A stretch of 64,000 bases of DNA from contig CAVWXQ010000014.1 in NCBI GenBank assembly GCA_963759005.1, positions 23,655-87,654 of the forward strand, written 5' to 3'. Under the pieces are notes generated by a model that saw nothing but the letters and a program-made list of their open reading frames with translations, did not search any database and was not told the origin of the DNA. The position numbers and the translations under genes were made by a program. The stretch comes from an uncultured Gammaproteobacteria bacterium (lineage in GTDB: Bacteria > Pseudomonadota > Gammaproteobacteria > SZUA-229). Shown here piece by piece: positions 23,174 through 48,260 of this stretch (position 1 is its first letter; each line of letters starts with the position of its first letter).

Positions 23174-23237
23174 TTCCTGAAATAATTTTTAACAGGTTTC
23201 ATAATTTCTCACTACTGTCTCGTTAACTGCCAGAGAC

Positions 23238-24022: not shown

Positions 24023-27000
24023 GCTGAGACCTCCACTTTTTTCACCCGCATCTTTTTCTCTAATGCTTCTTCTACCCAGGCATAGAGTGCCGGCAGTAAA
24101 ATCAATGTCAGGATGGTTGAGGTAAACAGGCCGCCAATCACCACGACGGCGAGTGGCTGCTGCAGTTCAGAGCCGGGGCCGGTCGCTGTCAGCAGGGGCA
24201 ATAAACCAAAGCTGGCTATCATGGCTGTCATCAGTACCGGTCTTAATCGTCGTTCAGCGCCCCGTCTTACCGCTTGCTGAATACTTAAACCCCTTTGCCT
24301 TAGTTGATTGAAGTAACTCACCATCACCACACCATTGAGTACCGCAACACCAAACAGGGTAATAAAACCTACCGATGCCGGTACCGACAGATAAAGTCCG
24401 GAATAATACAAACTGACGACACCGCCAATCATAGCGAAAGGGATGTTCAGAATAATCACGCCTGCCTGTAACAGCGAACGGAAAGTGGTAAACAACATGA
24501 AGAAAATAAGCACTATGGCAACAGGTACCACCAGAGCCAGTCTGGTTGATGCACGCTGCTGGTTTTCGAACTGACCACCAAAGGTAACATAATAACCCGT
24601 AGGCAAGTCCACTTTTTCTTCTATCTTACGACGTACTTCCTCGACAAAACTGACCACATCGCGGGCCTCTACATTTGACTGGATAACCACCAGACGTTTG
24701 GCCGATTCACGTATAATCTGAACCGGTCCATCCACCACTGTCACTTCGGCCAGGTGTCCCAGAGACACTTTAGTACCATTGGGTAAACTCACCAGCATTT
24801 TTTTAATGGCTGCCGCTGAGCTGCGATCTTTTTCCTGATAGCGCACCAGGATGCCGACACGACGATTATTTTCCAGTAATTCGGTCACCACCTGGCCACC
24901 GACTGCGGTTTCTACTAACCTGTTAATGTCTTCAACATGGATGCCATAACCGGAAATCACGTCCTGATTGATGTCGATCTGTAAATATTTCTGCCCTGAA
25001 ATATCAGCACGAAACACGTCTACTGCACCCGTTATATTATTCACCAGTTGTTCAATTTCGATGGCTTTCTGCTCCAGTACAAACAGATCATCACCATAAA
25101 GTTTGATTGCCATGGCAGAACGCACACCGGTTAGCATTTCTGATACGCGCATATCGATTGGCTGACTGAAGGCGTAATCAACATTATCAAAAGGGGCTAA
25201 TTTTTCACGCAAATTTTCCTGGAACTGTTGCAATGAAATATTCCATTCTTCCTGTGGTTTTGTCACCAGAAAATTATCGGTCTGATTTAAGCCCATTGGA
25301 TCCATGCGTAATTCATCAGCGCCTGTTCGCGAGGTGACGCCAATCACTTCAGGCAGCTCCATCATGGCTTTTTGAATCGGTGCGTCCATTTCCAGCGATT
25401 TTTCCAGGGTGATACTGGGATCTTTTTCTAACAGGATAACGGTACTGCCCTCATCCATGATCGGCATAAATTCTTTACCGATATGAGGGAACAGGGTTGC
25501 TGTTGCAAACAGCGCCACCAGCGCTAACCCTACCGCCGTTTTTCTATAACGTAGCGCCCAGTTCATCGCCGGTAAATAAATGATTTTCAGCACTCGCATA
25601 AGACGACCATCTGTGTCTGCATTTTGGGCCTCGGCCAGCGCATTTTCGGCCTGCTTTTCATCGTCCTGTTTTTTCGCCTGTTCATTCGGTTGATTTTGGA
25701 CATGAAGTTTCATAAAGAAACTGGCCAGCACTGGAATCACGGTTAATGACATTATTAACGAACCAATCAGGGCAAAAGTAATGGTAATGGCCAGCGGCGA
25801 AAACATTTTCCCTTCCAGTCCGGTCAGGCTAAACAATGGCAGAAACACAGCCACAATAATCAGTATGCCGGAAATAACCGGCGACGATACTTCCAGCACC
25901 GCGCGATAAACAAGGTGCAATTTATTAACACCTGCAGGCGCTTTACTGAAATGGCTATGAATGTTCTCCACCACCACGACGGCGGCATCAACCAGAATGC
26001 CAATAGCGATTGCCAGCCCGCCTAGTGACATCAGGTTGGCAGATACATTGAACAGCTTCATCATAATGAAGGTAAACAACACGGTTAACGGCAAAATTAA
26101 TGCCACCGTTAACGCACTGCGGATATCACCCAGCATAATAATTAACACCAGCAATACCAGCACAACGGCTTCACCCAGTGCTTTTTCCACCGTCCATACT
26201 GCCTTGGTAATCAGCTCGGTTCGATCATAAAACGATTCGATGCTAACGCCTTCAGGCAAAATAGCTTTTAATGTTTCCAGTGCTTTTTTAGTTTCTGCTA
26301 CCGTCTGTAAACTGTTGGCGCCTTTACGCAACAGAACCAGTCCGGTGACGACTTCACCCTCGCCATCAGCAGTTACCGCGCCATAACGTGTCATACTGCC
26401 AACGCGCACCTCGGCTACATCACTAATATGTATCGGTTCACCATAAAGTGTGCGTACGGTTATGTTCTTAATGTCGTCCACGTTGTTTAATTTTCCGACC
26501 GTACGCACCAGTAATACTTCATCGTTCTGGTTGATGCGATCACCGCCAGCATTGCGGTTACTCTCCATCAGAGCATGCTCTATTTCGTCGATACTGATGC
26601 CGTGTTTAACCAGCGTTTTCGGTTTGATAACTACTTCATAGGTACGAACTTCACCGCCCAGTGAATTAACATCTGCCACCCCTTCTACTTTGCGCAGATG
26701 CGGACGGATGACCCAGTCCTGCAAACTGCGCAATTCCTGGTTGCTATAACTCTTGCCGCTATCATCGCCGCTGTTGGTGTCGTAGTTATGGCCGATAATG
26801 CGATACATAAATATCTCACCCAGTGGGGTGGTAATGGGAGCCAGACCACCTTCAATATCGGCCGGTAATGAATCCCAAACCTGGTTGAGTCGCTCTGTCA
26901 CCAGATTACGCGCCAGATAAATATCCATGTCATCTTCAAAGTCGACAACAATCACACTTAATGCATATTTTGTTGTTGATCTAAGTACGGTCTGTCCGGG

Positions 27001-29382: not shown

Positions 29383-30130
29383 GTGTGTAGTTATATGACT
29401 AATGTAAGTTTTCAACAATACAAAGTATGGGATGTAGCAACCAGATTATTTCACTGGATTAATTTCATAACCATTATTTGCCTTATTTTTATGGGTTTAA
29501 TTATGTTGTTCAAGAAAGAACTCGGCATAACCAGCATTGAAGCTAAAGTGGGTTTAAAAGAAGTTCATGTCATTATAGGTTATGTCTTTGTATTAAATTT
29601 TGCCTGGCGAATCATCTGGGGTTTCATCGGAAACAAATATGCACGCTGGACTAACATTGTTCCGGGCAAAGGTTTTATTAGTCTTGTTCGTAATTACATT
29701 CGATTCTGTAAAAAGCGGCGACCCCGAACAATACATCGGCCACAACCCGCTGGGACGTCTGGCAATATTATTCATTCTTTTACTTATGTTTACCTCAGCC
29801 GTAACCGGTCTGGTGCGCGCCGGCACTGATATTTATTACCCGCCTTTCGGTTCGTTTGTTGCTGACTATATTGCGGAGCCCGGTATAGACCCGGACAGCA
29901 TAAAACCTTATATTGCGGAAGGCACGAATAAAGATAAGGCTGCCAGCTTAAAAGCGTTTAAAGATCCTTTTGGTCAAATCCACATCTATTGTGCATACGT
30001 ACTTATGTTTATGATCGTCCTGCACATTTTCGTTGTGGTGCGCACCGAGGTACGAGAAGGTGGCAGTTTGATCACCGCCATGTTTACTGGCAACAAAATA
30101 TTGGCAAAGAAACCGATTGATATAGATTGA
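29383..30130 (+). CDS. cytochrome b561 / Ni-Fe hydrogenase b-type cytochrome family, frameshifted near 29670
   Basis: RLFHWINFITIICLIFMGL (frame A). GHNPLGRLAILF and HIFVVVRTEV (frame B). The two ORFs 29383..29829 and 29600..30130 overlap. Confidence 0.6.
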
Positions 30131-30224: not shown

Positions 30225-32375
30225 TTATTGTAGATTTAACTGTCTGCGACCACGCGCCTGATAACTTACCGAGCCACTGGCTGATCCACCATCACCACTA
30301 CAGGTTAAGGTAAATGTTACCGGACCATTAATCACTATAGACTCAGAACCATTGGTCACTTTTAATCCAGACCAGTCACCGGAGGCAGAGCAGCTGGTGG
30401 CATCTGTTGATGACCAGCTTAATGTTATCGTATCACCACGAAATACTGACGCTGGACTTGCCGTCAGATTAACCGTCGGTACAATAACGGCTGTTGGTGC
30501 ATTTACTGTTACTGTCACGCTGGCACTGGCAATTCCGCCGTCACCGGTACAGCTAATGGTATAGCTGGTGGTTGCCGTCGGAGTAACCACTTCAGAACCA
30601 CTGGTAGCACGACTGCCGCTCCAGCCACCCGAAGCCGTACAGCTTATGGCATCACTTGAACTCCAGCTCAAGGTCGCTGACTGGCCCTGGTCAATAGTTA
30701 ATGGCGAGGCTAAAAGGGACACAACAGGTACAGGGAGCGTGCCACTAATAACATCATTAAGCACTGTTATTTGCGCACTGGCGATCTGCTCATGTTTCAA
30801 ACTTTGTGCATCATAAAGTGTTTTGAAAGTCTGCACCTGTTCCAGGTGGTTATCACGATATAGATCCTGTAAATAACCATATGCGATAGTCTGATAATTT
30901 ATAGACACGCTAACATTCAGATCACCGGCAACAGTAACAGGAATACGGTAAGTTATTTCATCACTTCCCTGATTAAAGTTGGCATCATCAAACGCCAGAC
31001 CGCGAACTGCAACATCCGATGGCACGGCAAGCTTGTCAAAACCTTCTGGCGTCAGCCTGTTATCTTTCAAATACTGTGCGCCACGCAACAGGGTAAAAGT
31101 CACATTACTATCGGAATCACCCATAATCGGCTCATAAATCTGCACCTGGTCAGCTGAAGTAACCAGATCGTAATGCGGTTCAAACACAGTATTGTCTGCG
31201 TCATTGTCTGCACCTACAATAGAACCATCTGCGTTTATCCGGCCTGATTCAAAAACAATATTATTGTTACTGTCAGTAACCTTAAAGTTGAGCCACATGC
31301 GCCGTGATGGATAACCTGTTGGCGTTTTATGGCCTGAGTTATTTTGCACTTTAACCTGGGCTTCCAGCACACCATTGTTCACCGAAGCCGATACAAAGGC
31401 TATGTTTACTGCGCTCTGCAACATGGCGCGGGCACGGTCAATACTTAAATCCATATTGGCACTGGTCACGTCCAGCTGCGCGGCATTATTGTTAAGCAAG
31501 GTCAGCATTGTGGTATTGGCCCCCACCAGCTGATGTTTGGCAAAGCCATCTTTAACACCGAGCCATCGTGGACGATTGGCTATTTTGGATGTTGTTTTCG
31601 GCATATGGCAATCCTGGCAGCTTTGCGGGTTGCTGCCAGCGTCATCAAAAATCGAATTCTGCCATTCTGTATAGGGCATCTGTTCGGGAAACTCTGTATC
31701 TGGTGTGGTGCTCACTACCAGGCCGTTTGCATCAACAAAAGGTGTTTTTAAATCATGGCAGGTCGCACAGACGGCTGAATCTGAAATATGTGCACTGTAT
31801 TCCGGGGTGTATCCGGTGTTATTAATCATTGGCTGGGCGGTGATGTTGCTATATTGCCCGTAGATTGTTTTCGTATCATTAATTGTGTAGTGACCTGATG
31901 CGCCAGCCGGTGTACCCAGGGTAGCATCATCTTTGATTTGATGACACACAGTACAGCTGACACCATTCATACCGGCATCATGCAGTTCATGATTAGTATC
32001 AAGGATGCCGTTGGGTCCAAACAGTGTGACATCGCCACCCTGTACTTTCGTGATTTCGTAGTTAGCCATTGGTGCATGACACTTGCTGCACTTATCATTT
32101 ATCAATGAAGATAGATGCGGATTACGTTCTAACTCAGTCGCTACCTTTGCACGCCAGAAAGGGTCCTTGGTCGCATTCGCCATCATCGATGTTCCCCAGT
32201 CCTCGACGATGGACACATTATCACCTGAAGTATCGGTCAAGCCATCATGGCACATGGTGCAGTTTCCTGAACCTGAAAAATGTGAGGTGGTGAAATTGTC
32301 ATTCTCTGCCTGCGCAGTGAAAGAAAAAAGAAAAAATAGGATAGTTACTGATAGTCGAAATACGTTTTTGCTCAT
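30225..32375 (-). CDS. secreted pentaheme c-type cytochrome with two C-terminal Ig-like repeats
   Basis: Signal peptide. Five CxxCH motifs (CTMCH, CSKCH, CTVCH, CATCH, CQDCH). About 55-aa repeat (LxASP...SATLSWSS...SCTASG.WSG...TYTISCTGDGG) present twice. Confidence 0.8.
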   Translation of the reverse strand: MSKNVFRLSVTILFFLFSFTAQAENDNFTTSHFSGSGNCTMCHDGLTDTSGDNVSIVEDWGTSMMANATKDPFWRAKVATELERNPHLSSLINDKCSKCHAPMANYEITKVQGGDVTLFGPNGILDTNHELHDAGMNGVSCTVCHQIKDDATLGTPAGASGHYTINDTKTIYGQYSNITAQPMINNTGYTPEYSAHISDSAVCATCHDLKTPFVDANGLVVSTTPDTEFPEQMPYTEWQNSIFDDAGSNPQSCQDCHMPKTTSKIANRPRWLGVKDGFAKHQLVGANTTMLTLLNNNAAQLDVTSANMDLSIDRARAMLQSAVNIAFVSASVNNGVLEAQVKVQNNSGHKTPTGYPSRRMWLNFKVTDSNNNIVFESGRINADGSIVGADNDADNTVFEPHYDLVTSADQVQIYEPIMGDSDSNVTFTLLRGAQYLKDNRLTPEGFDKLAVPSDVAVRGLAFDDANFNQGSDEITYRIPVTVAGDLNVSVSINYQTIAYGYLQDLYRDNHLEQVQTFKTLYDAQSLKHEQIASAQITVLNDVISGTLPVPVVSLLASPLTIDQGQSATLSWSSSDAISCTASGGWSGSRATSGSEVVTPTATTSYTISCTGDGGIASASVTVTVNAPTAVIVPTVNLTASPASVFRGDTITLSWSSTDATSCSASGDWSGLKVTNGSESIVINGPVTFTLTCSGDGGSASGSVSYQARGRRQLNLQ

Positions 32376-33238: not shown

Positions 33239-33395
33239 CCCAGATATTTCATAGGAACGCTACAGCTTTAACTTAACATTATGATTGTATTGAGAAATAT
33301 TGGCATATTAGCAAAGCACACTATGTACCCGATAACGCTCGGCAATTGCTCCTGCATTGCCCTACTACCTGCCATCCATGGCAGTATATGCAGTT
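33239..33395 (+). mobile_element. MITE copy 3 (5' portion only, variant with internal insert)
   Basis: Left TIR cccagatatttcataggaacgc plus an internal segment identical to the insert in copy 2. The right end is missing. Confidence 0.5.
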
Positions 33396-33472
33396 GCTCG
33401 GGAATTATGGCTAGAACACATTACGCCCATAAATGGGCACAATGTTCACAACATATCTAGTGTAAGCCCCTA

Positions 33473-33958
33473 CTAAGATAAACTGAGTTTGATTGCATCA
33501 ACCAGATCATCACAGGCTTTGGCGCATGCATCGCACTCGATATGCTTCTCATGTTTTTTGCATTCTTTTGCACAATCCTGGCACACTTTGTCACATATTT
33601 GTGAGTACTCTTTAGTGTAACTGGAGTTCGATGCCACAAGATAGGCAAAACCACCACAAACTGACATCATTTCCTGCACCTTGCTCGCACAGTCAGCCAG
33701 TTCGGTATCACCCTCGGTAAAACTAACCATACAGTGTGCAACACAACGTCGCCCTTTGTCGAGGCAAGCATTAACTGCATCCATCACATCGGTTAACTGC
33801 GTTGCATGTTTGCTGTGATCGTGCTCTTTTGCGGCCGCCGATGCAGAACCTGCATAAGCCATGGTCGCAGCAGCACCCATCCCCAGCAATACATCTCTAC
33901 GACTGATGCCATTTTTTACCTGTTGCTGTTTTTCAGATACGGTTTCTTTTTCTGACAT
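33473..33958 (-). CDS. TAT-exported Cys-rich four-helix-bundle protein (Csp/DUF326-like copper storage)
   Basis: Twin-arginine signal SRRDVLLGMGAAATMAYAG. Many Cys in CxxxC-type spacing (CLDKGRRCVAHC, CDKVCQDCAKEC, CDACAKAC). Confidence 0.65.
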   Translation of the reverse strand: MSEKETVSEKQQQVKNGISRRDVLLGMGAAATMAYAGSASAAAKEHDHSKHATQLTDVMDAVNACLDKGRRCVAHCMVSFTEGDTELADCASKVQEMMSVCGGFAYLVASNSSYTKEYSQICDKVCQDCAKECKKHEKHIECDACAKACDDLVDAIKLSLS

Positions 33959-33993: not shown

Positions 33994-34380
33994 TTGTACT
34001 ACAGATGTGAACAACAAATCAAGATATATTATGAATATAGCAGTACCTTAATGATACATCGTGATGTTTTGGAGTTAACGAGTCAGCAGATCAGTTCCTT
34101 TCGCAATTGGCGTAAGCAAAACTATGGAAACATGGTGGACGTTATGAATACTCTTATCGAAAAGCGTGTCGAATTTAAAAAAGCTTCGCTAAATCCCGAT
34201 ACATCGGAAGAAGAATTGATTAAGACGCAAGATGATATTCTGAATTTGCACAAAAAACTTCTTGAGATAAAGTTAACCTGCCGTAAGATGTTAGTTGACA
34301 GTTTCACAGAGGCACAGTGGGATAATTTTGCATTTGCGGTTGCTGATCATCCCAAGCTTGGGAGTTTAATTCAGCGATAG
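33994..34380 (+). CDS. Spy/CpxP-family LTXXQ periplasmic protein, N-terminally truncated paralog (possible pseudogene)
   Basis: About 85% nucleotide identity to 39178-39501 from HRDVLELTSQQ onward. Lacks the signal-peptide portion present in the 38992 copy. Confidence 0.5.
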   Translation: MYYRCEQQIKIYYEYSSTLMIHRDVLELTSQQISSFRNWRKQNYGNMVDVMNTLIEKRVEFKKASLNPDTSEEELIKTQDDILNLHKKLLEIKLTCRKMLVDSFTEAQWDNFAFAVADHPKLGSLIQR

Positions 34381-34522
34381 GAAATTGCGATGGGTTTATA
34401 ATCACTTTCATACATGTGTGCCGTGCAGCATATAACCTGGTAGTTACGTAATCTCACCGGTTTGGTTGAGTCTATGTGTCAAAAATACAAACAGCACTAC
34501 CGGAATGATAATTGTTGAATGG

Positions 34523-34578
34523 CCGTTGTGGGTCGACTTTGCCCTGTCAGCTCATTACCCCGAAGGAGAATATGCGGC
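34523..34578 (+). repeat. 56-bp dispersed repeat, copy A
   Basis: ccgttgtgggtcgRctttgccctgtcagctcattaccccgaaggagaatatgcggc. Identical to 37971-38026 except for 1 nt. Confidence 0.6.
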
Positions 34579-34831
34579 CAAAAACAGTCCCTCACCAGTT
34601 ATCTGAAGCAAATAATGCAGCATGATGGGAGAACTGTTGAACATACATGATAATGGCACGTAATATAGGCCATATCACCCAGCAAATTCGACCACATAGT
34701 CATTAGGAATCCAATACCTCCAATTGATACAACCAGAAGTATCGACGCATACATACACTTTATTTAACAGGGAACCAATAAAAAGTCAGATCATTGGTAT
34801 TTCACAATCCGACCGTTGCATTTCCTCCAAT

Positions 34832-35065
34832 TCACAGCCCGATAAGTTGGGCATGCGCTCCCTGGTCCGTTATGCGTTTCAGAATTTTCTGAGAATCCAT
34901 TTCCTCAGGATTGTATTGTACAACGGTCAGATGTGGTGTTTTGCTCGAACCATGTACGCTGACAACCCCGTCCAGGGCACGAAGACTGTCCTCTACCGTT
35001 ATTCTCTGTTCAGGGCTCAGGTTTTCATCGATATGCACAGTAAGATCAACAAGATTGATATCCAT
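34832..35065 (-). CDS. small hypothetical protein (HMA-like fold guess, no CxxC)
   Basis: 77-aa ORF. No motif I can place. Confidence 0.25.
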   Translation of the reverse strand: MDINLVDLTVHIDENLSPEQRITVEDSLRALDGVVSVHGSSKTPHLTVVQYNPEEMDSQKILKRITDQGAHAQLIGL

Positions 35066-35471
35066 AGCCTACCTCCTATATATCTGGTGCACTAATCACT
35101 CAAAGCGTGATAGTTTAACCTCAAATTAGTGTAAACGACCGCCTCCCTGATGTTCTTGTTCTATGTCAAACTTTCGCTTCGTTTTCTGGCGAAGCATACG
35201 TAAGCCTCGGCTAATACTGTAACTACCAGCGTGCTCGCTTTGGTTCGGTTAAGGCATATTCACAGACGCTAACGATAATGGGTCAACTACTGTCTGTTAG
35301 CTATAGCTAGTATTAAGAGCAGCTAACAGTCTCTCTTGGGTCGATAGCTGCCTGTTCGATGCAAGTAATATTAGAATTATCTAACTGTCGCCTTTGGTTC
35401 CACAACGCTCTATCAGCTCAGTATCATGACCGCGGATAAGCGGCCAATAACGCCCATTCAAGATCAAAGGC

Positions 35472-35631
35472 ATTAGTCCGCGAAGTACGCGAAAGACGCG
35501 AAGTAAAACCTTTTTTATTTTTTATTAAGACGCAGCAGTAAAGGGAATAAATAAACAACTTATATTTTTTTCTTTGCTTTCTTTGCTTTCTTTGCTTTTT
35601 TTGCTTTTTTTGCGTTCTTCGCGGACTAATG
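35472..35631. repeat. 15-bp TIR-bounded element enclosing (tttctttgc)n tandem repeats
   Basis: cattagtccgcgaag ... cttcgcggactaatg with 3x tttctttgc plus 2x tttttttgc inside. Confidence 0.45.
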
Positions 35632-35986
35632 TTTTAAGTTTTTTGAATGAGTAATAAGGGTCGGCAACAGACATAAAAAAGCACCCGTAGAGGGAGTCCG
35701 TTCTCTAGTGTGCTCGCAGCCTGACTTCCGAATCTTGATGCTGACCGTGTATCGGCTGATTTGTATATTACTGGTAGACCTGTTCTATTGCTGTCGGTCC
35801 GAGCTTGTTGAAATCAGGATTTTCCTACAGGTTGATATTAAAGTAACTTGATATACATTCTTCCAGTGAACCCAGTAACAGGCACACCTGTGACAGAAGG
35901 GTCGTTTAAATATACAGGTAATACATTAACCGTTCCCGAAGTAGAATTACAGCCTAAGGCTACGTTTGCATACGAGTAAATGGATG

Positions 35987-36030
35987 CCGATATTGGGCAA
36001 TAATTTCATCAAGTGGATATCACTATATTG
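35987..36030 (+). repeat. about 45-bp repeat, copy 1 (inverted copy at 38731-38781)
   Basis: ccgatattgggcaataatttcatcaagtggatatcactatattg versus the reverse complement of caatatagtgatagtgaaatccacttgaaggaaattattgcccaatatcgg. Confidence 0.45.
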
Positions 36031-36152
36031 CCCATACTAACTTTCACATTTTAGGGCTGGCTCACCATCGGCCCAAATTTTTTCGACTTTTCACACAACC
36101 TGGTCCAACAAGAGACATTCAGCACAAATAAAAACGGCTCCTGAAGGAGCCG

Positions 36153-36467
36153 CTATTGATTAACTTTTAATTGTTGTGCCTTCTTTCCTCTGGCAACACC
36201 GATTAAACCGATTAACCCTGAACCAAAAAGCCATACGGCTGCAGGAACGGGAACAGCTGAAACCGATATATTGTCTAATTGTAAATAACTTCCGCTTGTC
36301 TCAGTCCATGATGCACTTAATACATTAGACCAATTTAAATTAAAGGTTTCCAAGCCTATAATACTATCAGTGCTTACAACAGTAGATAATAATGATCCTG
36401 AATTTGTTACAGCATTAATACTTATGTTTTGGCTAACACCTGAATTAAATACGTCGCCAATCTATAG
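36153..36467 (-). pseudogene. PEP-CTERM sorting-signal protein remnant
   Basis: C-terminus VPVPAAVWLFGSGLIGLIGVARGKKA (PEP-like motif, TM, basic tail). Only about 100 codons open and no proper start. Confidence 0.5.
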
Positions 36468-36597
36468 AAAATAAATTAAATGCGCCGCCATTAAGTTGAG
36501 TTAGAGTCGTTGTGTAATTGCTGTGCGTGCACCAGCACGGTGGGGGTTAATACGTTGGCTCCCCGGGTCTTTCTGGGCGCATAAAACCCTTTGGTCA

Positions 36598-36690
36598 GCA
36601 ACCCCGATAGCGTTTAACGGCACGTTTGATGCTGATCTTTGACACGCCAAAAGCACGCGCAATCTCTGCCGTTTGCCTGTACTGGAATAG
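36598..36690 (-). mobile_element. IS630-family transposase N-terminal HTH remnant
   Basis: RQTAEIARAFGVSKISIKRAVKRYRGC* matches the IS630 N-terminal pattern R.EAA.RFGVS.S...RW..RYRE.G. Stop codons on both sides. Confidence 0.4.
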
Positions 36691-37356
36691 TTATGAGAGA
36701 AAGTCACGCCACTCGGATCAGCATTGTATGGAGAAGAGCTTTCCCAATGAAGAATGGAGCCAATGCCAGCAGAAGAGTAATAAACAGGTTGAAAATCCTT
36801 GGAAGCATCAAGAGATGGCCAGTCGTAATGGAGCCAATGCCAGCAGATTTAAACTTTGCTTGTGTTGTCAAAAAGATTTCTTCAAAATCAAATAATTGAC
36901 GAATGTCTGCAATGGGTCGTAATGGTACTTTAGCGGCAGCTAATATTGAGAGTTGTTAACGGTTGTCTTTGGGTCGATAACTGGCATTCCATTATTCCAG
37001 ATGACATCATCATCTTGGTCTGAAACTATAACCATAAAGCACTCACCCAACAATCGAGAGGCATGGATGATTGCACCCTTCTTATTGTCGTAACTCCCCA
37101 CGGTTGACAATGATTGAGAATGTTTATCGGGTTTGCACTGTACTATCCACATATTACTATCCTGTTTGTAATTATCTGGTCGTCATTACGTCGAGTTTGT
37201 TTATTCAAATATCAAAGCAATATTTATACCAAAATAATAATATATAAGATTATCAGGGCATTAATTATATAAGAGCATTTAATGGATTACTTAGTTGTAA
37301 AGCAGGGTTACAGTTGTTGAATGGCCGCTTAGGCAACAGACATAAAAATGCGCCCA

Positions 37357-37540
37357 CTATCCATAAGGGGGTGCGGCATAGTCAGGTAACCTTTCGTATA
37401 TTTCTTCACTATAAACCGTCACTTCTTCAGGTGCGTCTATACCTATCCTGGCATGGTTGCCTTGAATGTCCAGTTAGAGTAATTTCAATATCACCGTCTA
37501 AAATAATTGTTTCGCCAATTTTTTTAGTCAGCAACAACAT
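37357..37540 (-). pseudogene. csrA: csrA (carbon storage regulator) with +1 frameshift at about 37476
   Basis: RBS aggagg, then MLLLTKKIGETIILDGDIEITL. The rest (LDIQGNHARIGIDAPEEVTVYSEEIYERL) is in the +1 frame. One extra base in ctaACTgg. Confidence 0.7.
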
Positions 37541-37970
37541 TATTACCTCCTAGCTTTATTGGTACCTTTAAAACTGGAAGTTGTTATGGCAAGTATGAAA
37601 ATAATGCTTATGACTGATGACCACGCTACCATCTCTATAACTATTGCTTCTCGCTTGTTATCTTTTTTATCTTTCATTTTTAATTTACTTGTCGTTGCGA
37701 CGAAAACTTGTTTTAATAATGATGCACAGCAAAAACCATACCAAAATAAGAAATTATCTAACTATCAATTAGATAGCTAAATATTAGCATTTCATTGATT
37801 TTTAACGTGTTAAGAACACCGGACAGAATACGAAATATAAGGCTGGAAATAACAGGATTTCTCTACACTTGCTGAACATCTCTCATGGGTCGGAAGCTAC
37901 CATACAAGCATATAACGCATTATTTAAAGCAAATCTTAGGATGTAAATAATTTCGACAGGGGCTGACAGT

Positions 37971-38026
37971 CCGTTGTGGGTCGGCTTTGCCCTGTCAGCT
38001 CATTACCCCGAAGGAGAATATGCGGC
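37971..38026 (+). repeat. 56-bp dispersed repeat, copy B
   Basis: See 34523-34578. Preceded by gctgacag, which pairs with the internal ctgtcagc. Confidence 0.6.
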
Positions 38027-38122
38027 TATTGGAAGTTCACGATACAATAAAAATGACCTTGGAGTAGCTATTTTTCTGGTGATATAAATTAGAAACCTGT
38101 GGTCAAATAACCGTTGCTATTA

Positions 38123-38560
38123 TTATTTATGTGGCGACAATGAGGACAGGTACTCAGAAGAACACCAACCTTTTCCGTGAAATTGTGTATTCACATAATA
38201 CCAACCATCAGCCTCTCTAATATATTCAACCTCTGATCCAACTTTCAGTACGGCGATTGGAGTGGTGTCCAATGATGCAGAAGGTCTGAGGTTTAACTTT
38301 GCTCTAACTGTATGTGTTGGAACAAATGCCTTTACTGCTTCAGATGTCATATGGGCTGATCTTGGAGCATCAGGTTCAGTTGCAGCTTGCGACTCATCTG
38401 GCTCCGCGATTTGTGGGCCGGGCGCATGGGCTGACGCATCTTCCTCTGGGGCCGTGGCTTCCTTTTCCGAGCAACCGGCACCCAGCAGCATCACTAGTGC
38501 CAGTGTGGGGGTTATCGCCTTTACGCAAAATCTCCGGCGCTGGGTAGTATCAATAGACAT
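38123..38560 (-). CDS. SH3b-domain lipoprotein
   Basis: RBS ggaggtg, then ATG at 38560. Lipobox LGAGC. C-terminus VRAKLNLRPSAS...VLKVGSEVEYI...GWYYV..GKGWCSSEYL matches the SH3_3 pattern. Confidence 0.6.
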   Translation of the reverse strand: MSIDTTQRRRFCVKAITPTLALVMLLGAGCSEKEATAPEEDASAHAPGPQIAEPDESQAATEPDAPRSAHMTSEAVKAFVPTHTVRAKLNLRPSASLDTTPIAVLKVGSEVEYIREADGWYYVNTQFHGKGWCSSEYLSSLSPHK

Positions 38561-38730
38561 GGGTTCACCTCCGTAATGACGTGATTGGGTAATCTGTTGT
38601 TGTGAAGTGTACGTGAAAATCACTTGGGTGTAAAAAAAAGTCGGGTCCTGTCCTTCCCTCGAATCACAGCGGGTTGCAGGCTAAACACGTACTTTCGGCT
38701 GCCAGTTCAACCGTATGAAAGGTTTAGTAT

Positions 38731-38781
38731 CAATATAGTGATAGTGAAATCCACTTGAAGGAAATTATTGCCCAATATCGG
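38731..38781 (-). repeat. about 45-bp repeat, copy 2 (inverted relative to 35987)
   Basis: See 35987-36030. The flanking ttttcacacaRcctggKcc motif is also shared. Confidence 0.45.
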
Positions 38782-38991
38782 CTTCCATTTACCACTTTCA
38801 AATATCACTAATACTTTTCACACAGCCTGGGCCATGAACGGTCATTCAGATGCACATCTAAATAATATATACACTGAGCTTACAATGTAGGACTTTTCCT
38901 ACAAGTCATTCAGGTGTAAGTCATATTATTCGATATATTTTTGAGTATTATAATCATGCGGGGGAATTAATACTTCAGAGGAAGGGAAAAT

Positions 38992-39501
38992 ATGAATATA
39001 AATGCTATAAAACTCGCCACTATTCTCATAACAACCTTTTTGTTTGTCGAGCCACTCTCGGCAATGCATAAAAGTGACCATGATCTATCCAATGATGAAT
39101 GGGCGATACTAATGCGCAAACTTGAGCTACTGGATGGTGTTAACTACATGCCAACATTATTACCTACAATAATGAGACATCGTGACGTATTGCAGTTAAC
39201 GAGCCAGCAGATCAACTCCTTTCGCAATTGGCGTAAGCAAAACTATGAAAACATGGTAAAAGTAATGAATACAATTATCGAAAAGCGTATCGATTTCAAA
39301 AAAGCTTCGTTAAACCCCAAGACTTCAGAGGAAAAATTACGTGAGATGCAAAGCGATATTCTGACCTTGCATAAACAGCTTCTTGAGATAAAGTTATCCT
39401 GTCGTAAAATGCTCGTTGATAGTTTTACAGAGGAGCAGTGGGATAACTTTGCCTTTGCGGTTGCTGATCACCCCACGCTAGCGAGTTTAGTTCAACAATA
39501 G
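38992..39501 (+). CDS. Spy/CpxP-family LTXXQ periplasmic protein (full length, signal peptide)
   Basis: Signal peptide MNINAIKLATILITTFLFVEPLSA. LTSQQ motif. Paralog of 33994-34380. Confidence 0.6.
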   Translation: MNINAIKLATILITTFLFVEPLSAMHKSDHDLSNDEWAILMRKLELLDGVNYMPTLLPTIMRHRDVLQLTSQQINSFRNWRKQNYENMVKVMNTIIEKRIDFKKASLNPKTSEEKLREMQSDILTLHKQLLEIKLSCRKMLVDSFTEEQWDNFAFAVADHPTLASLVQQ

Positions 39502-40021
39502 GAATTTGTTGCGGGTTTTAACCTACCTATGTGTCCGGTCTATACACCTATTTCATGCATGCACCGGACGTCATGCAAATAATATGGTAGATACGTATTT
39601 CAACGGTTTGGTTGCACCATGTATCAAAATGCAACCAACACTCCCGTAATGGTAATTACTGAATGACCGTATTGGGTCGGTTAACGACCTTCAAGCAATT
39701 AATCATCGCCATTATAAATCAGCGGTCGCTTACCGGTACACACTGCGTGAAAACTCAATTTGTAAATTGCAATAAATAGTGGCTTCATCGAATGATTGTG
39801 AAGCCACTATCGAGTATTCTTTGAGTTTTCACATACTCCGGGCCATGAGCAGATCGTCATAAGTTTTTACTATGTCCCAAACTTACCATGCAAGACCCCT
39901 TTACTTTTAATGTTAAGTTAAATTTTTAGCGTTCCTAAGAATTATTCGGATTAACTCCAGAAACAAAAACGGCAGCCTCAATGGCTGCCGCTATCATGCT
40001 ATGAATTAGTTTTTACTGTAA

Positions 40022-40276
40022 CCCGGTTATTTCATAGTAACGCTGCTAATCTTGCTTAACACTATGATTATTATAACAAATAGCAATATATTAGAAAAAC
40101 ACACTATGTACCTGACAACGCTATGCAGTTTTTGGAAAAATATCAGCGGCCATTTTCTACGATTCCCCTGCAACCATAGCTACGGCTATGCTTTTCGGCG
40201 AATCGTACAAACTGACTCACTGACCGATTTTAATAAAACATGACCCCATCGTCTGCATTCCTATGAAATATCCGGG
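40022..40276 (+). mobile_element. MITE copy 4
   Basis: Both TIRs intact. Terminal ...GGGTT overlaps the TAA stop of ORF 40277-40564. Confidence 0.7.
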
Positions 40277-40564
40277 TTAAGGTAATGTTAATGCTTTTAT
40301 TAACTCATGTAGTGAGTTCCATGTAATTTCAACATCATCCTTGAACTCTTCCCATGTTTCATCACCAGCCTGTTTTAGTCGCTGAAGTTTTTTATGAGCG
40401 GCTTCTAGCTCCAGTTTCACTTCTTCGATTAACGTGTAGTACTCAAGCTGCAAATTGGTTTCTTCCTGTTCGGCTTTTTCCTTAAACGCCGCAAGCCTGG
40501 TTTTCCACTCATCAAGCTGTGCCTGCATATTCTTTTCATATACGTCTCTAATGCTCATATTCAT
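40277..40564 (-). CDS. small coiled-coil protein, hypothetical
   Basis: 95 aa, E/K/Q-rich heptad-like sequence. Confidence 0.3.
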   Translation of the reverse strand: MNMSIRDVYEKNMQAQLDEWKTRLAAFKEKAEQEETNLQLEYYTLIEEVKLELEAAHKKLQRLKQAGDETWEEFKDDVEITWNSLHELIKALTLP

Positions 40565-40633: not shown

Positions 40634-42097
40634 TTACCAACTCAATGCCACGAATTGCTGCATATTGTTTTTTCTGATGAGTAACAGTATACGTTTGCTG
40701 GCGCTGCTTTTTTTCACTTCACGTTTAAAGTCCTCAGCACTTGTTATCGGTATACGGTTTACCTGTACGATAATGGAACCGGATTGTATGCCTGCACTGG
40801 CAGCAATGGAATCAGGTCTGACTTGCGTAACCACCACCCCTTCACCGGCTTTTGCGTTAAATTGTTCAGCCAGTTGTGGCGTAATGGTCTGCACGGTCAG
40901 GCCTAGCTCATCGGTGCTTTGAGTTGATGCCTCTGCAACCATTTTGTCCTTGCTTAGTGTACCGATAGTGACAGAAATATTGCGGCGCTTACTATCGCGG
41001 ATAATCGTCAATTGTTCGCGGCTTCCCGGTGATGTAAGCGAGACCCGGTTACGGAATTCACCTACTTTGGTCACTGGTTTACCCTGGTAGGCAACAATGA
41101 CATCACCCTGTTTCAAACCCGCCTCTGCGGCCGGTGAATCTTCGGTTACCTGGGCGATCAAAATCCCCTGGTTTTGATCAAGATCGAACGACCTGGCCAG
41201 TTCAGGTGTTAACTCCTGAATGACGATACCAAGATAACCTCGTGTCACCTCGCCACTATCCATCAACTGATCAGCAATGCCTTTGGCCAGGTCAATGGGG
41301 ATGGCGAAACCGACACCCATATAACCGCCGCTGCGAGAAAGGATCGCGGTATTGATGCCGACAACTTCACCATCAAGATTAACCAGAGGCCCACCGGAGT
41401 TACCAGGATTGATGGCCGCATCTGTCTGGATGAAATCCTCATAATCACTAATCCCTAAACTGGTGCGTCCTTTAGCGCTGACCACGCCTACAGTAAGGCT
41501 ATGGCTTAATCCAAAAGGGCTACCAATGGCAATGACCCATTCCCCGACCTCCAATGAAGAAGAATTGCCCAGCGCCAGTGCCGGCAGCCCTCCTGTCTTG
41601 ATCACTAGTACGGCAACGTCGGATTGCGGGTCTGTACCGACGATCTCGGCATCAAATTCACGGCCATCCTTGAGTTGCACATGGATCTTGTCTGCTCCAG
41701 CCACAACATGGTTATTTGTCAGGATATAGCTTTTATCGGAGAACAGACCATCCTTTGACTTGAAGATAAACCCCGAACCCTGACCGACAGCACGGCGCTT
41801 GCTCTCTGGCGTCTCAGATCGAGGCATTTGCGGGAGCTGAAATTGATCGCCAAAAAAGCGTTTAAACAGGTCATCATTGAATGGTCCACCTTCACCGAAA
41901 GGGAACTGAAAATCGGGCATTTCTTGCCCGCTCACTATGCCCTCACTGCGAATATAAACGACAGAAGGCGATACAGTGCGAGCCACTGAGGTGAAAGCCT
42001 TGCCAGTCTCACGCAAACTTTCAATGCCACTTTCCTGTGCATGGACTGGTGTTATGAATAGAAACACACTCAGGATTAAAATTATTTTATTATTCAT
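40634..42097 (-). CDS. degP: DegP/DegQ (HtrA) periplasmic serine endoprotease with two PDZ domains
   Basis: Catalytic triad contexts TNNHVV, D, GNSGGPL. Signal peptide. Confidence 0.9.
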   Translation of the reverse strand: MNNKIILILSVFLFITPVHAQESGIESLRETGKAFTSVARTVSPSVVYIRSEGIVSGQEMPDFQFPFGEGGPFNDDLFKRFFGDQFQLPQMPRSETPESKRRAVGQGSGFIFKSKDGLFSDKSYILTNNHVVAGADKIHVQLKDGREFDAEIVGTDPQSDVAVLVIKTGGLPALALGNSSSLEVGEWVIAIGSPFGLSHSLTVGVVSAKGRTSLGISDYEDFIQTDAAINPGNSGGPLVNLDGEVVGINTAILSRSGGYMGVGFAIPIDLAKGIADQLMDSGEVTRGYLGIVIQELTPELARSFDLDQNQGILIAQVTEDSPAAEAGLKQGDVIVAYQGKPVTKVGEFRNRVSLTSPGSREQLTIIRDSKRRNISVTIGTLSKDKMVAEASTQSTDELGLTVQTITPQLAEQFNAKAGEGVVVTQVRPDSIAASAGIQSGSIIVQVNRIPITSAEDFKREVKKSSASKRILLLIRKNNMQQFVALSW

Positions 42098-42274
42098 TAT
42101 TTAAACCTATCTTATGTCGTTAACTAATATCGAAGATAATCGATCCAACGTTCTCAATCATATTTAACACATTAAGAAAATGATCTTATATTAACAATTG
42201 CTTCTGTACTAGACATCCATGTCTACGTGAGCACCTGGCGTACAAAACACACACCCTGCAAGCCAAACATTATT

Positions 42275-42310
42275 GGAAACGGAGTGATAAAAGAATAATC
42301 ACTCCGTTCC
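42275..42310 (-). terminator. hairpin downstream of Hsp20 gene
   Basis: ggaacggagtgat-N9-atcactccgtttcc on the minus strand, 25 nt after the stop. The following U-run is weak. Confidence 0.4.
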
Positions 42311-42334
42311 CTTTATGCTTAACCCTGTAAAGGC

Positions 42335-42832
42335 TTACTCAACTTTTATTTGTTTACGTTGAGATTTTTCCTGTTTTGGTATGGTCATTTCCAGCACACC
42401 ATTCTTGTAGGATGTTTTGATTTTTTCATCATCAACCTCGTCAGGTAAGAAAACAGAACGATAGATCTCGCTCTGTCTGATTTCCTGTTTCAGGTAGTCA
42501 CCTTTTTCCTCTTTTTCTTCCTTGCAGGTTTTTGCTTTGATAACGAGTCGGTTATTAGCTATCGAAATATCGAGATCATCTTTATCAAAACCGGGTAATT
42601 CAGCTTTAACAAAAATTTCTTTATCTCTATCGACAACATCTATCTTTGGCATTTTGCTTAGAGAACTAAAAGAAAACGTGTCAGGTAATTTCTCATGATG
42701 GAAAGGATTGCGCCACATGTTATGAAACATGTTTTCAACTCTGTCCTCAAGGTCCCTGAACGCTGTTAAATAGCTATTCTCAGCCTCATTTGTGGTTTTT
42801 GAAAGATTTTTTTTGTCAGACATTTTAATCAC
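42335..42832 (-). CDS. Hsp20/alpha-crystallin family small heat-shock protein
   Basis: ...IFVKAELPGFDKDDLDISIANNRLVIKAK...YKNGVLEMTIPK. Confidence 0.85.
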   Translation of the reverse strand: MIKMSDKKNLSKTTNEAENSYLTAFRDLEDRVENMFHNMWRNPFHHEKLPDTFSFSSLSKMPKIDVVDRDKEIFVKAELPGFDKDDLDISIANNRLVIKAKTCKEEKEEKGDYLKQEIRQSEIYRSVFLPDEVDDEKIKTSYKNGVLEMTIPKQEKSQRKQIKVE

Positions 42833-46527: not shown

Positions 46528-48260
46528 TTAGTGACTATGTGCGCTAGCTGCCCCTGCTGGTACACGTATATCTTCAACCATATGTTGAATGTGATCAGGT
46601 GGTGCTGGTGTCATCTTCGAAACAACATAGGCCACACTGAAGTTTACAACCGCGCCCACTGCACCAAACGCATTTGGCTCAATGCCCATAAACCAGTTTG
46701 GTTTCATGTCACCTAAGAAGGCGGTACCGGGAACAAACATAATACCTTTGTGTTGGAACACATAAAGTAGCGTGACAGAAATACCAGCAATCATACCTGC
46801 AATGGCGCCTTCCTTGTTCATATTCTTACTGAAAATACCCATCATCAGTACAGGGAAGATGGAAGATGCAGCAAGTCCGAATGCCAGTGCCACCGTTCCC
46901 GCAGCAAAGTCAGGCGGATTAAATCCCAGGTAACCAGCTAAGCCGATAGCACCTGCCATCGCTAACCGACTGGCGAACAACTCCTGCTTCTCGTTAATAT
47001 CCGGTCTAAACACCCCTTTCAATAAATCATGTGAAATGGATGAGGCTATCGCCAGCAACAAACCTGCGGCGGTAGATAGCGCAGCAGCAAGACCACCTGC
47101 AGCAACCAGGGCAATTACCCAGTTAGGTAAACCAGCTATCTCAGGATTTGCCAGCACCATGATATCTCTATCAACTTTCACCATTTCGTTAGTGACTGGG
47201 TCTGCAGAATAATTCAACCAGACCATCGCCATTTTTGTCTTCAAATTTCAACAGACCTGTTTTCTCCCAGTTTTTAAACCAGCTTGGACGGTCGTCATAA
47301 ACAAGATTTACACCAGGCTCGTGGCTGAATGGTTTCGTGTAAGTTTAAACGAGCCATCGCAGCTACAGCAGGTGCTGTTGTATAAAGAATAGTGATAAAG
47401 ATTAGTGCCCAACCAGCAGACACACGCGCATCACTCACTTTTGTCACTGTGAAGAAACGGATGATTACGTGGGGCAGACCCGCAGTACCAATCATTAGAG
47501 ACAAAGTATAAACAAAGGTGTTTAAGGTACCCAGTCTCGTAAGCGTCGTGTACTCAGCAAAACCGAGTTCCGTCACCACCTGATCCAGTCGATCCAGCAG
47601 ATAGGTTTCTGTACCCGCCATCATACTACCCAAACCTAACTGTGGAATTGGATTACCGGTCAGGTTCAGCGAGATAAAAATTGCAGGAATGGTATAAGCA
47701 AAAATAAGAACACAGTATTGTGCAATCTGGGTATAGGTAATACCTTTCATGCCGCCTACAACCGCGTAGATAAATACGATGCCCATACCAATTGACAATC
47801 CTAATTCATAACTCACTTCCAGGAATCGGGAGAATGCCACGCCGATACCTTTCATCTGACCGATTACATAGGTCACCGATGCAACAATCAAACAGATTAC
47901 TGCAACAATACGTGCAGTTTTTGAGTAATAACGATCGCCAATAAACTCTGGCACGGTGAACTTTCCGTACTTGCGCAGGTAAGGGGCAAGCAACATCGCC
48001 AACAACACGTAGCCACCCGTCCAACCCATAAGAAAGACAGAACCGCCGTAACCAAAGAACGCAATCAAACCCGCCATCGAAATAAACGATGCTGCTGACA
48101 TCCAGTCGGCGGCGGTCGCCATGCCGTTAGCAATCGGATGAATACCACCGCCAGCGATATAGAATTCACTGGTTGTTCCAGCACGCGCCCAGAAAGCGAT
48201 GCCGATATAGATCGAAAATGTTATACCTACGACAATAAATGTTAATGTTTGTAGTTCCAT
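46528..48260 (-). pseudogene. actP: actP-type cation/acetate symporter (SSF family), at least 2 frameshifts near 47240-47340
   Basis: The N-terminal 321 aa and C-terminal 238 aa are each SSF-like (...GLPHVIIRFFTV...). The linker HEPGVNLVYDDRPSWFKNWEKTGLLKFEDKNGDGL is readable only in a third frame. Confidence 0.8.

What the first reader, a model, noticed from the sequence alone, without database searches (positions are those of the whole stretch)
37357..37540. Global regulator csrA carries a +1 frameshift
A good RBS and the CsrA N-terminus are followed in frame by HSRQPCQDRYRRT*. The conserved remainder of CsrA is perfectly readable one base out of frame. The gene was below the 60-aa ORF cutoff and is not in the supplied track. 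If real, loss of CsrA would be a major regulatory change and typical of host-restricted decay. Otherwise it is a single-base sequencing error.
Basis: seen in the sequence. Interest (0 to 1): 0.55.

Follow-up and report, generated by a model that had tools for sequence, protein, structure and literature searches.

The report
Frameshifted CsrA-like gene, probably assembly error
A small CsrA-family RNA-binding-protein gene is split by one extra base that no relative carries, and since other genes in this window are broken the same way, it is most likely a sequencing or assembly error, not loss of a global regulator.

Summary
On the minus strand, 37540-37357, a CsrA-family gene with a strong AGGAGG ribosome-binding site is split by a +1 frameshift. 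With one base removed it gives a 60-aa protein scoring 70.9 bits against Pfam CsrA.

DNA alignments with six intact relatives place the lesion exactly: one extra C (gene strand) at 37473, CTAA[C]TGG against CTAATGG. A syntenic contig about 98% identical has the gene intact. Apart from that base, the window's gene differs from it by two conservative codons.

The gene is probably not the canonical global csrA:
- It falls just below both NCBIfam CsrA equivalog cut-offs.
- It has no alaS or tRNA neighbours.
- It belongs to a small clade, found in metagenome contigs and MAGs, with a conserved LPDYAAPPYG tail.
- In the window's sub-clade the key RNA-binding Arg44 is Ser.

The frameshift is not special within the window:
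- ActP carries two private 1-nt insertions, yet shows dN/dS 0.03 once repaired.
- A cytochrome b561 gene is split.
- A giant high-GC multicopper-oxidase-like gene changes frame roughly 25-35 times with only one in-frame stop.
- A related Nanopore-only contig has its own different private frameshifts in two genes, while the contigs with SPAdes-style names have none.

Best reading: a consensus indel error (about 0.65). Rival: a very recent strain-specific pseudogene (about 0.3). Host-restricted decay is not supported.

The parts
37357..37540 (-). CsrA-family gene (183 nt plus 1 extra base). As written it gives a 37-aa truncated product; with 37473 removed it gives a 60-aa protein, MLLLTKKIGETIILDGDIEITLMDIQGNHARIGIDAPEEVTVYSEEIYERLPDYAAPPYG.
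   Evidence: frames. (Pfam CsrA 70.9 bits repaired). (repaired gene differs from the intact L031 orthologue by 2 nt only). (aligns to residues 1-52 of solved CsrA/RsmE structures).
37473..37473 (-). The frameshifting extra base: C on the gene strand, G on the + strand, in CTAA[C]TGGAC. Not in a homopolymer.
   Evidence: Absent from all aligned relatives: L004, L005, L006, L007, L030 and L031.
37427..37429 (-). Premature TGA stop reached in the shifted frame.
37546..37551 (-). Shine-Dalgarno AGGAGG, 5 nt before the ATG. AGGAGG itself is invariant in the aligned relatives.
37555..37557 (-). AAA run just 5' of the SD. The window has one more A than every relative (AA), a second private 1-nt length difference within 85 nt of the first.
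37543..37677 (-). Conserved upstream element read as a small ORF: 44 aa here, 37-50 aa in relatives, MKDKKDNKREAIVIEMVAWSSVISIIFILA..., with one hydrophobic helix. Coding status is unresolved.
   Evidence: The ORF is kept open in 10 related loci plus the window and the DNA is 75-92% conserved. Variable sites show no third-position excess (15/13/16). The consensus RNA fold is weak (-8.4 kcal/mol).
37334..38011 (-). Conserved block (gene plus about 470 nt upstream) shared at about 95% identity with contigs L030 and L005, whose flanks are otherwise unrelated to the window.
   Evidence: Its upstream edge lies in a short repeat also found at 34523-34578.

Best explanation
The locus is a real gene for a 60-aa CsrA-family protein. 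It belongs to a small clade known only from metagenome contigs and MAGs, with a conserved C-terminal LPDYAAPPYG tail. It is most likely an accessory paralogue, not the canonical csrA.

The +1 frameshift is one extra base (C at 37473). It is most likely an indel error in the consensus of a long-read metagenome assembly, so the organism probably makes the intact protein.

Shown:
- The exact extra base.
- Its absence from every relative.
- An otherwise unblemished ORF.
- Several other genes in the same window broken by private single-base indels.
- No relaxed selection in the one of them that could be tested.

Inferred:
- That the window comes from a long-read-only assembly.
- That the base is therefore an artefact and not a very young mutation.

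If intact, the protein would by homology act as a CsrA-type dimer binding GGA motifs near ribosome-binding sites. The Arg44-to-Ser change in this sub-clade leaves open whether RNA binding is retained.
For: 1. The lesion is private. All relatives read CTAATGG: four intact 60-aa relatives, L030 from the single metagenome pattern match, and the syntenic, about 98% identical contig L031, whose gene is called intact. All 37 database homologues are uninterrupted, and 24 with the tail align end to end. The exact 37-aa truncated product is absent from the gene-position index of public assemblies.

2. There is no decay besides the one base. The repaired gene differs from L031 by 2 nt (L14I, R50K), and in both cases the window keeps the family-majority residue.

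3. The same kind of damage occurs elsewhere in the window.
- ActP/SSF is split by two private 1-nt insertions (47321, 47212) that the relatives L032 and L033 lack. Repaired, it is a clean 576-aa ORF with dN/dS 0.031, the lowest of six neighbouring genes.
- A cytochrome b561 gene is split between two frames (29383-29829 covers profile positions 1-109; 29600-30130 covers 80-179). The shift lies beside an A5 run.
- A giant multicopper-oxidase-like gene at about 5.1-12.0 kb changes frame roughly 25-35 times with only one in-frame stop. That is an indel-dominated profile.

4. The pattern follows assembly type.
- L047 comes from the MFD03551 assembly, shown by the shared contig name and length with MAG MFD03551.bin.2.3. 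That project's MAG assemblies were Nanopore-only, made with Flye plus one round of Medaka (PMC12313526). L047 has its own different private frameshifts in the GT2 and hydrolase genes, which are intact in the window. In L031, from the same assembly, no split gene was noticed in the called genes.
- Contigs with SPAdes-style names (L005, L006, L032), the Logan contig L004 and the WGS records L030 and L033 show no frameshift in any gene compared.

5. The window's contig is 141 kb. It is 95-98% identical to contigs of that Nanopore assembly.
Against: - The extra C is not in a homopolymer, which is the classic site of Nanopore indel errors. The same is true of one ActP insertion.
- The source and sequencing technology of the window's contig were not shown by any tool. 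The link to a long-read assembly is inferred.
- No reads are available, so a genuine, very recent strain-specific mutation cannot be excluded. With only 2 substitutions against the nearest relative, the gene has no power to show relaxed selection.
- The region around the gene is rearrangement-prone (kb-scale indels against L031, dispersed short repeats), so real local instability is plausible.
Confidence: 0.65

Rival explanations
1. The insertion is genuine: a very recent, strain-specific frameshift that has turned an accessory CsrA-like paralogue into a pseudogene. The 37-aa product lacks strands beta3-beta5 and the helix, so no dimer and no RNA-binding surface would form. The cell's canonical CsrA, encoded elsewhere, would be unaffected.
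For: - The extra base is in a non-homopolymer context.
- The sub-clade already carries Ser in place of the critical Arg44 and Lys in place of Arg6. R44A abolishes RNA binding and regulation in E. coli CsrA (PMC7652899). Constraint on this copy may therefore be weak.
- The locus sits in a rearranging, repeat-rich, gene-poor stretch.
- Accessory CsrA paralogues are known in other Gammaproteobacteria (PMC4471563, PMC7366521).
Against: - There is no other lesion in the gene.
- The S44 form is kept intact in five related sequences: P0001, P0002, and the genes on L005, L030 and L031.
- Other frameshifts in the window lie in genes under strong purifying selection (ActP dN/dS 0.031).
- Private frameshifts also occur in the related Nanopore-only contig L047 but not in the SPAdes-named contigs.
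- No second occurrence of the allele was found.
Confidence: 0.3
2. One reading: the organism's global regulator CsrA has been lost as part of host-restricted genome decay.
For: Several genes in the window are broken. Coding density is low at 33-40 kb and short dispersed repeats are present. Superficially this resembles a decaying genome.
Against: - The gene fails both NCBIfam csrA equivalog cut-offs and has no alaS or tRNA neighbours.
- Gene content is that of a free-living environmental bacterium: multihaem cytochromes, MbnP and di-haem peroxidase pairs, a Csp1 copper-storage protein, an RND efflux pump, CrbS-like sensor kinases, DegP and Hsp20.
- The repaired broken gene shows dN/dS 0.031.
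- The damage is indel-only, with almost no in-frame stops.
- Close relatives from environmental metagenome assemblies have all the compared genes intact.
Confidence: 0.04
3. The frameshift is programmed: translational +1 recoding, as in prfB, yields the full-length protein.
For: Only that a +1 shift would restore the protein.
Against: - No relative has the extra base, so the shift is not conserved.
- The site CUA-ACU-GGA is not a slippery sequence. No stop or rare codon lies at the shift site; the 0-frame stop is 15 codons downstream.
Confidence: 0.01

Closest known systems
CsrA/RsmA of Gammaproteobacteria (E. coli CsrA, PDB 1Y00; Yersinia 2BTI; Pseudomonas RsmE, 2JPP)
   Same: - Same Pfam family (PF02599, 70.9 bits).
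- Aligns without gaps to residues 1-52 of the solved proteins.
- Keeps L2, L4, G9-E10, the GxxxP core, V40, V42, E45-E46 and I47.
- The strong SD contains GGA, as at typical CsrA-regulated sites.
   Different: - Below both NCBIfam equivalog cut-offs.
- No alaS-csrA-tRNA arrangement (that arrangement is from my own knowledge of enterobacterial genomes).
- The C-terminal tail LPDYAAPPYG replaces the usual polar tail.
- H43 is Y throughout the clade. In the window's sub-clade R6 is K and R44 is S. R44 is reported as critical for RNA binding (PMC7652899).
Accessory CsrA paralogues (Legionella CsrR and ICE-linked csrA-like genes; Pseudomonas RsmE/I/N and related)
   Same: An extra, divergent CsrA-family gene outside the canonical locus, found in Gammaproteobacteria. 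Such paralogues are documented (PMC4471563, PMC7366521).
   Different: - No conjugation, T4SS, plasmid or phage genes lie nearby.
- No close homologue in plasmid records or viral contigs (45% identity at best).
- The tail motif is not one I know from described paralogues (my own knowledge, not tested).
- Co-occurrence with a canonical csrA in the same genome could not be tested.
FliW-partnered CsrA (Bacillus, Campylobacter, Helicobacter)
   Same: CsrA proteins whose C-terminal region is bound by a protein antagonist. This offers a precedent for a conserved tail serving as a partner-binding site.
   Different: No fliW or flagellar genes lie adjacent. Six-frame Pfam of 33.1-38.1 kb finds nothing but CsrA. 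The match to B. subtilis CsrA is weak.
Indel consensus errors in long-read-only metagenome assemblies
   Same: Private single-base indels split otherwise conserved genes, at different sites in different long-read assemblies of close relatives, and are absent from the SPAdes-named contigs. The MFD long-read project itself polished to reduce indel errors and inspected its catalogue for Nanopore-associated errors (PMC12313526).
   Different: Two of the three characterised insertions are not in homopolymers. The technology behind the window's contig is inferred, not shown.

Membership tests
CsrA/RsmA family (Pfam PF02599) | Sequence match above the family's gathering score | tested here: met
   Repaired protein scores 70.9 bits against a cut-off of 27. 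The two fragments score 27.2 and 29 bits on their own.
CsrA/RsmA family (Pfam PF02599) | Uninterrupted ORF of about 55-75 aa encoding strands beta1-beta5 plus a C-terminal helix | tested here: not met
   As written, the ORF stops after 37 aa, with 13 residues out of frame. It is met only after removing base 37473.
CsrA/RsmA family (Pfam PF02599) | Critical RNA-binding residues L4 and R44 (E. coli numbering; PMC7652899) | tested here: not met
   L4 is present. Position 44 is Ser in the window, P0001, P0002, and the genes on L005, L030 and L031. It is Arg in most of the rest of the tail-bearing clade.
CsrA/RsmA family (Pfam PF02599) | Binds GGA-containing RNA as a domain-swapped dimer and alters translation | not testable with these tools
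   Needs gel-shift or reporter assays with the repaired protein.
Canonical csrA (NCBIfam equivalogs NF002469, TIGR00202) | Score at or above the curated equivalog cut-off | tested here: not met
   69.9 against 73, and 66.1 against 70.1. These are narrow misses.
Canonical csrA (NCBIfam equivalogs NF002469, TIGR00202) | Typical gammaproteobacterial neighbourhood (alaS upstream, tRNA genes downstream; from my own knowledge) | tested here: not met
   No tRNA gene in the whole window. None of the ORFs scanned with Pfam is a tRNA synthetase. Six-frame Pfam of 33.1-38.1 kb hits only CsrA.
Canonical csrA (NCBIfam equivalogs NF002469, TIGR00202) | Only csrA copy in the genome | not testable with these tools
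   No second copy lies in the 64-kb window.
Mobile-element-borne CsrA paralogues | Linkage to conjugation, plasmid or phage genes | tested here: not met
   No such genes lie nearby. No plasmid match. Viral contigs hold only homologues of 45% identity or less.
Programmed +1 frameshift genes (prfB type) | Shift site conserved in homologues, with a slippery codon, an adjacent stop or rare codon, and an upstream SD-like stimulator | tested here: not met
   The extra base is absent from every homologue. The site CUA-ACU-GGA has none of these elements.
Genuine pseudogene (genome decay) | Lesion confirmed in reads; further lesions or relaxed selection in the same gene | tested here: inconclusive
   Reads are unavailable. 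There is no further lesion and only 2 substitutions against L031, so there is no power. The one broken gene with power (ActP) shows dN/dS 0.031, which argues against decay.

The most novel reading that the evidence does not exclude
The tail-bearing proteins (consensus ...YREEIYERLPDYAAPPYG) would be an undescribed functional variant of CsrA. They occur in gammaproteobacterial MAGs and unassigned metagenome contigs. In the closer relatives they are preceded by a conserved small hydrophobic ORF or leader of about 135 nt. The window's sub-clade has replaced the essential Arg44 by Ser. It might therefore act through its invariant Pro/Tyr tail on a protein partner, or as a modulator of the canonical CsrA, and not by GGA-RNA binding. 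In this reading the frameshift is genuine and this strain is a natural knock-out.
Probability: 0.08. Interest if true: 0.45.

Novelty: not a real feature. Interest (0 to 1): 0.12.

Why it matters
If the frameshift were real and the gene were the global csrA, it would mean rewired carbon, motility and stress regulation. The evidence points the other way, to a probably intact accessory CsrA-like gene hit by a consensus indel.

There are two practical consequences:
- This contig should be read-checked or polished before any pseudogene or 'genome decay' claim is made. At least four genes in 64 kb are split in the same way.
- Annotation pipelines will miss this small gene, because both fragments are under 60 aa.

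A minor positive result is a small CsrA clade with an invariant LPDYAAPPYG tail and an Arg44Ser sub-clade. I did not check whether it has been described, and it may merit a biochemical look.

Tried and rejected
- **Plasmid origin.** Megablast of 34-40 kb against PLSDB gave no match.
- **Phage origin.** The viral-contig scan found only CsrA homologues of 45% identity or less, none with the tail.
- **Rfam.** No RNA family reaches its gathering score anywhere in the window, so no CsrB/Rsm-type sRNA or riboswitch was found nearby.
- **Finding the window's own genome or a second csrA.** The genome-contig scan returned only two tail-bearing MAG loci and distant CsrAs, not the source genome. Exact look-ups show the window's proteins sit on a 141-kb NCBI/ENA contig, but that contig was never returned.
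- **Looking for the frameshifted allele elsewhere.** The 37-aa product is not on record. The metagenome pattern allowing 0 or 1 extra base found one contig, and it is intact.
- **Canonical-looking CsrA P0030 as a possible co-resident copy.** Its contigs are short and carry no informative neighbours.
- **Pseudogene remnants around the gene.** Six-frame Pfam of 33.1-38.1 kb found nothing except the two CsrA halves.
- **Upstream small ORF as a proven gene.** The ORF is preserved, but there is no third-position excess. As an RNA element it has a weak fold and negligible covariation. Left unresolved.
- **One wasted search.** A 115-aa fragment of the oxidase-like gene found nothing. A 316-aa fragment then worked.
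- **Structure prediction.** Not attempted. CsrA is a domain-swapped dimer, and a monomer model would not bear on the frameshift question.

Full report
**Observation.** The gene lies on the minus strand. An AGGAGG Shine-Dalgarno (37551-37546) is followed after 5 nt by ATG at 37540. The frame reads MLLLTKKIGETIILDGDIEITLTG, then HSRQPCQDRYRRT, and stops at TGA 37429-37427. One base out of frame the sequence reads LDIQGNHARIGIDAPEEVTVYSEEIYERLPDYAAPPYG and stops at TAG 37359-37357. The N-terminal fragment scores 27.2 bits against Pfam CsrA and the C-terminal part 29 bits. The joined 60-aa protein scores 70.9 bits, E 8.5e-20. It aligns without gaps to residues 1-52 of solved CsrA/RsmE structures.

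**Where exactly the lesion is.** A search of the 5.8-billion-protein collection returned 37 uninterrupted homologues. The closest are all 60 aa, at 95, 92 and 87% identity and downward. DNA alignment of the window with four of their loci shows a single length difference inside the gene: CTAA[C]TGGAC here against CTAATGGAC in all four. The only metagenome contig matching a pattern that allowed 0 or 1 extra base (L030) also reads CTAATGG. So does L031, a 10-kb contig syntenic with window 34241-40468 at 95-98% identity. The site is not a homopolymer. A second private extra base lies 82 nt upstream in an A-run just before the SD (AAA against AA, 37557-37555).

**What the gene is.** The relatives form a tight clade with an almost invariant C-terminal tail, LPDYAAPPYG. 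In a profile search of 1.84 billion 50%-identity representatives, 38,428 proteins match CsrA. Only about seven 54-61-aa representatives match end to end with the tail.
- The only two tail-bearing members found in the 185,579-species genome set are MAGs labelled uncultured Gammaproteobacteria. The rest sit on metagenome contigs.
- The repaired protein falls just below both NCBIfam CsrA equivalog cut-offs (69.9 vs 73; 66.1 vs 70.1).
- The window has no tRNA gene, and none of the ORFs scanned with Pfam is an alanyl-tRNA synthetase.
- Six-frame Pfam of 33.1-38.1 kb detects nothing except the two CsrA halves.
- Neighbours differ between loci. Contigs L030 and L005 share only a 678-nt block (37334-38011) with the window.
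- The clade keeps L2, L4, V40, V42 and I47, and mostly R6 and R44. The window's sub-clade (window, P0001, P0002, and the genes on L005, L030 and L031) has K6 and S44. R44A abolishes RNA binding and regulation in E. coli CsrA (PMC7652899).

Taken together this looks like an accessory, divergent CsrA-family gene, not the canonical global regulator. Whether a canonical csrA exists elsewhere in the genome could not be tested. None lies in the window.

**Is the frameshift real?** Four lines of evidence bear on this.

1. *It is private.* No other sequence carries it, and the 37-aa product is not on record in the gene-position index of public assemblies.

2. *The gene is otherwise pristine.* With 37473 removed, it differs from the intact L031 gene by 2 nt (L14I, R50K). 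At both positions the window keeps the family-majority residue.

3. *The window contains the same kind of damage elsewhere.*
   - The ActP/SSF permease is split into 321-aa and 238-aa ORFs. The cause is two private 1-nt insertions, CCA[C]GAG at 47321 and GAA[T]TAT at 47212. Both are absent from contigs L032 and L033, which align over 10.3 kb at 95.3% identity and have an intact 576-aa gene.
   - Removing those two bases gives a clean 576-aa ORF with dN/dS 0.031 against L032, the lowest of six neighbouring genes. Two independent frameshifts in a gene with no sign of relaxed constraint are hard to explain as decay.
   - A cytochrome b561 gene is split between overlapping frames: 29383-29829 matches profile positions 1-109 and 29600-30130 matches 80-179. 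The change lies beside an A5 run.
   - At about 5.1-12.0 kb, in 60-68% GC DNA, a giant multicopper-oxidase-like gene can be read only by hopping frames. It has copper-site motifs such as HIFHLHNHQW and AIFHCHFYPHFAQGMW, and a weak Cu-oxidase_2 hit.
   - For that gene, a GC3 frame plot and a simple Viterbi stitch give roughly 25-35 frame changes but only one in-frame stop. Indels without stop-creating substitutions fit sequencing error better than an old pseudogene.
   - Its homologues in the database are all fragments of 175-544 aa, even on contigs of 0.1-1.2 Mb.

4. *The pattern follows assembly type.*
   - L031 and L047 come from the assembly that yielded MAG MFD03551.bin.2.3, shown by a shared contig name and length. 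[quoted passage not shown]
   - L047, syntenic with window 15571-24078, has its own private frameshifts: an extra T in the GT2 gene and AAA to AA in the hydrolase. Both genes are intact in the window. In L031 no split gene was noticed in the called genes.
   - The contigs with SPAdes-style names (L005, L006, L032), the Logan contig L004 and the WGS records L030 and L033 show no frameshift in any compared gene.
   - The window's proteins map to a 141-kb NCBI/ENA contig. It is 95-98% identical to those Nanopore contigs, so I infer that it is a long-read assembly too. This was not shown.

**Weighing.** The best explanation is a consensus indel error in a gene that is really intact (about 0.65). 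The main rival is a genuine, very young strain-specific frameshift in an accessory paralogue (about 0.3). In its favour are the non-homopolymer context, the pre-existing R44S change and the unstable surroundings. Only reads can decide between these two.

The 'loss of the global regulator through host-restricted decay' reading is poorly supported (about 0.04). The gene content is that of an environmental bacterium: multihaem cytochromes, MbnP and di-haem peroxidase pairs, a Csp1 copper-storage protein, RND efflux, CrbS-like kinases, DegP and Hsp20. The one broken gene that could be tested is under strong purifying selection.

Programmed +1 frameshifting is rejected. The site is absent from all homologues and has no slippery or stimulatory features.

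**How it would work if intact.** This part is inference from homology. The protein would form a CsrA-type dimer binding GGA motifs near ribosome-binding sites. Its own SD, AGGAGG, contains one, which would allow autoregulation. The invariant Pro/Tyr tail and the R44S sub-clade leave room for a different mode, such as partner binding. Nothing here tests that.

**Upstream element.** About 135 nt before the gene are conserved at 75-92% identity in all relatives whose CsrA is at least about 80% identical. They can be read as a 37-50-aa ORF with one hydrophobic helix: MKDKKDNKREAIVIEMVAWSSVISIIFILA..., or VKFNKDNLRETIIIEATAWAFIIGIVYLFVKT in the most distant case. The ORF is always open. However, variable sites are spread evenly over codon positions (15/13/16), and the consensus RNA fold is weak (-8.4 kcal/mol, covariation -0.36). 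Its nature is unresolved.

**Verdict.** The interpretation as loss of the global regulator is not supported. The frameshift is most likely an assembly artefact, one of several in this window. Interest is low. The one mildly novel by-product is the small tail-bearing CsrA clade.

Noticed in passing
window 46528-48260 (minus strand); extra bases at 47321 and 47212: The ActP/SSF acetate-permease-like gene is split into two ORFs by two private 1-nt insertions 109 nt apart. Relatives L032 and L033 have an intact 576-aa gene. Repaired, the window's copy has dN/dS 0.031 against L032, so it is almost certainly not a true pseudogene.
   Followed up: yes
window 29383-30130 (+ strand), shift near 29690-29720: A cytochrome b561 (Ni_hydr_CYTB) gene is split between two overlapping frames (Pfam profile positions 1-109 and 80-179). 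The frame change lies next to an A5 run. No relative was available to pinpoint the indel.
   Followed up: partly
window about 5100-12000 (minus strand): A giant multicopper-oxidase-like gene in 60-68% GC DNA, roughly 2,000 codons or more (end not defined), is readable only by changing frame roughly 25-35 times, yet has a single in-frame stop. Database homologues are all fragments of 175-544 aa, even on contigs of 0.1-1.2 Mb, so this family seems to be systematically fragmented in long-contig assemblies.
   Followed up: partly
window about 11900-14300: There is a sharp compositional break. GC falls from about 66% to about 40% near 13.9 kb, with a low-GC patch at 11.9-12.4 kb, next to a dispersed repeat (14023-14261). 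The syntenic relative L047 does not share the high-GC segment. This could be a chimeric join or a foreign island. A secretin ORF (12402-13121) there is only 239 aa, with the Secretin domain at residues 88-237.
   Followed up: partly
window 14023-14261, 21895-22321, 33239-33398, 40019-40280; also 34523-34578 and 37941-38032: Short dispersed repeats (about 50-430 nt, MITE-like) recur in the window and in related contigs (L003, L030, L031, L033, L047). They coincide with the edges of synteny blocks and kb-scale indels around the csrA-like gene.
   Followed up: partly
window 37543-37677 (minus strand): A conserved small ORF or leader lies directly upstream of the csrA-like gene (44 aa here, 37-50 aa in relatives, one hydrophobic helix). 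It is always open, but shows no third-codon-position excess and only a weak consensus RNA fold.
   Followed up: yes
window 33473-33958 (minus), 55468-56904, 59061-61336, 1007-1699: A copper theme runs through the window: a TAT-signal Csp1-family four-helix-bundle copper-storage protein, MbnP with di-haem peroxidase (MbnH-like) genes, SCO1/SenC, and the multicopper-oxidase-like gene. There is also a 716-aa multihaem cytochrome at 30225-32375.
   Followed up: no
window 40634-42832: The Hsp20-DegP pair is present in the window but absent at the corresponding place in relatives L032 and L033, where the flanking sequences align on either side of it.
   Followed up: no
L047 6172-7167 / 3834-6215 and 9426-10309: The related Nanopore-only contig has its own private frameshifts in the GT2 glycosyltransferase (extra T) and the S33 hydrolase (AAA to AA). 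Both genes are intact in the window.
   Followed up: yes
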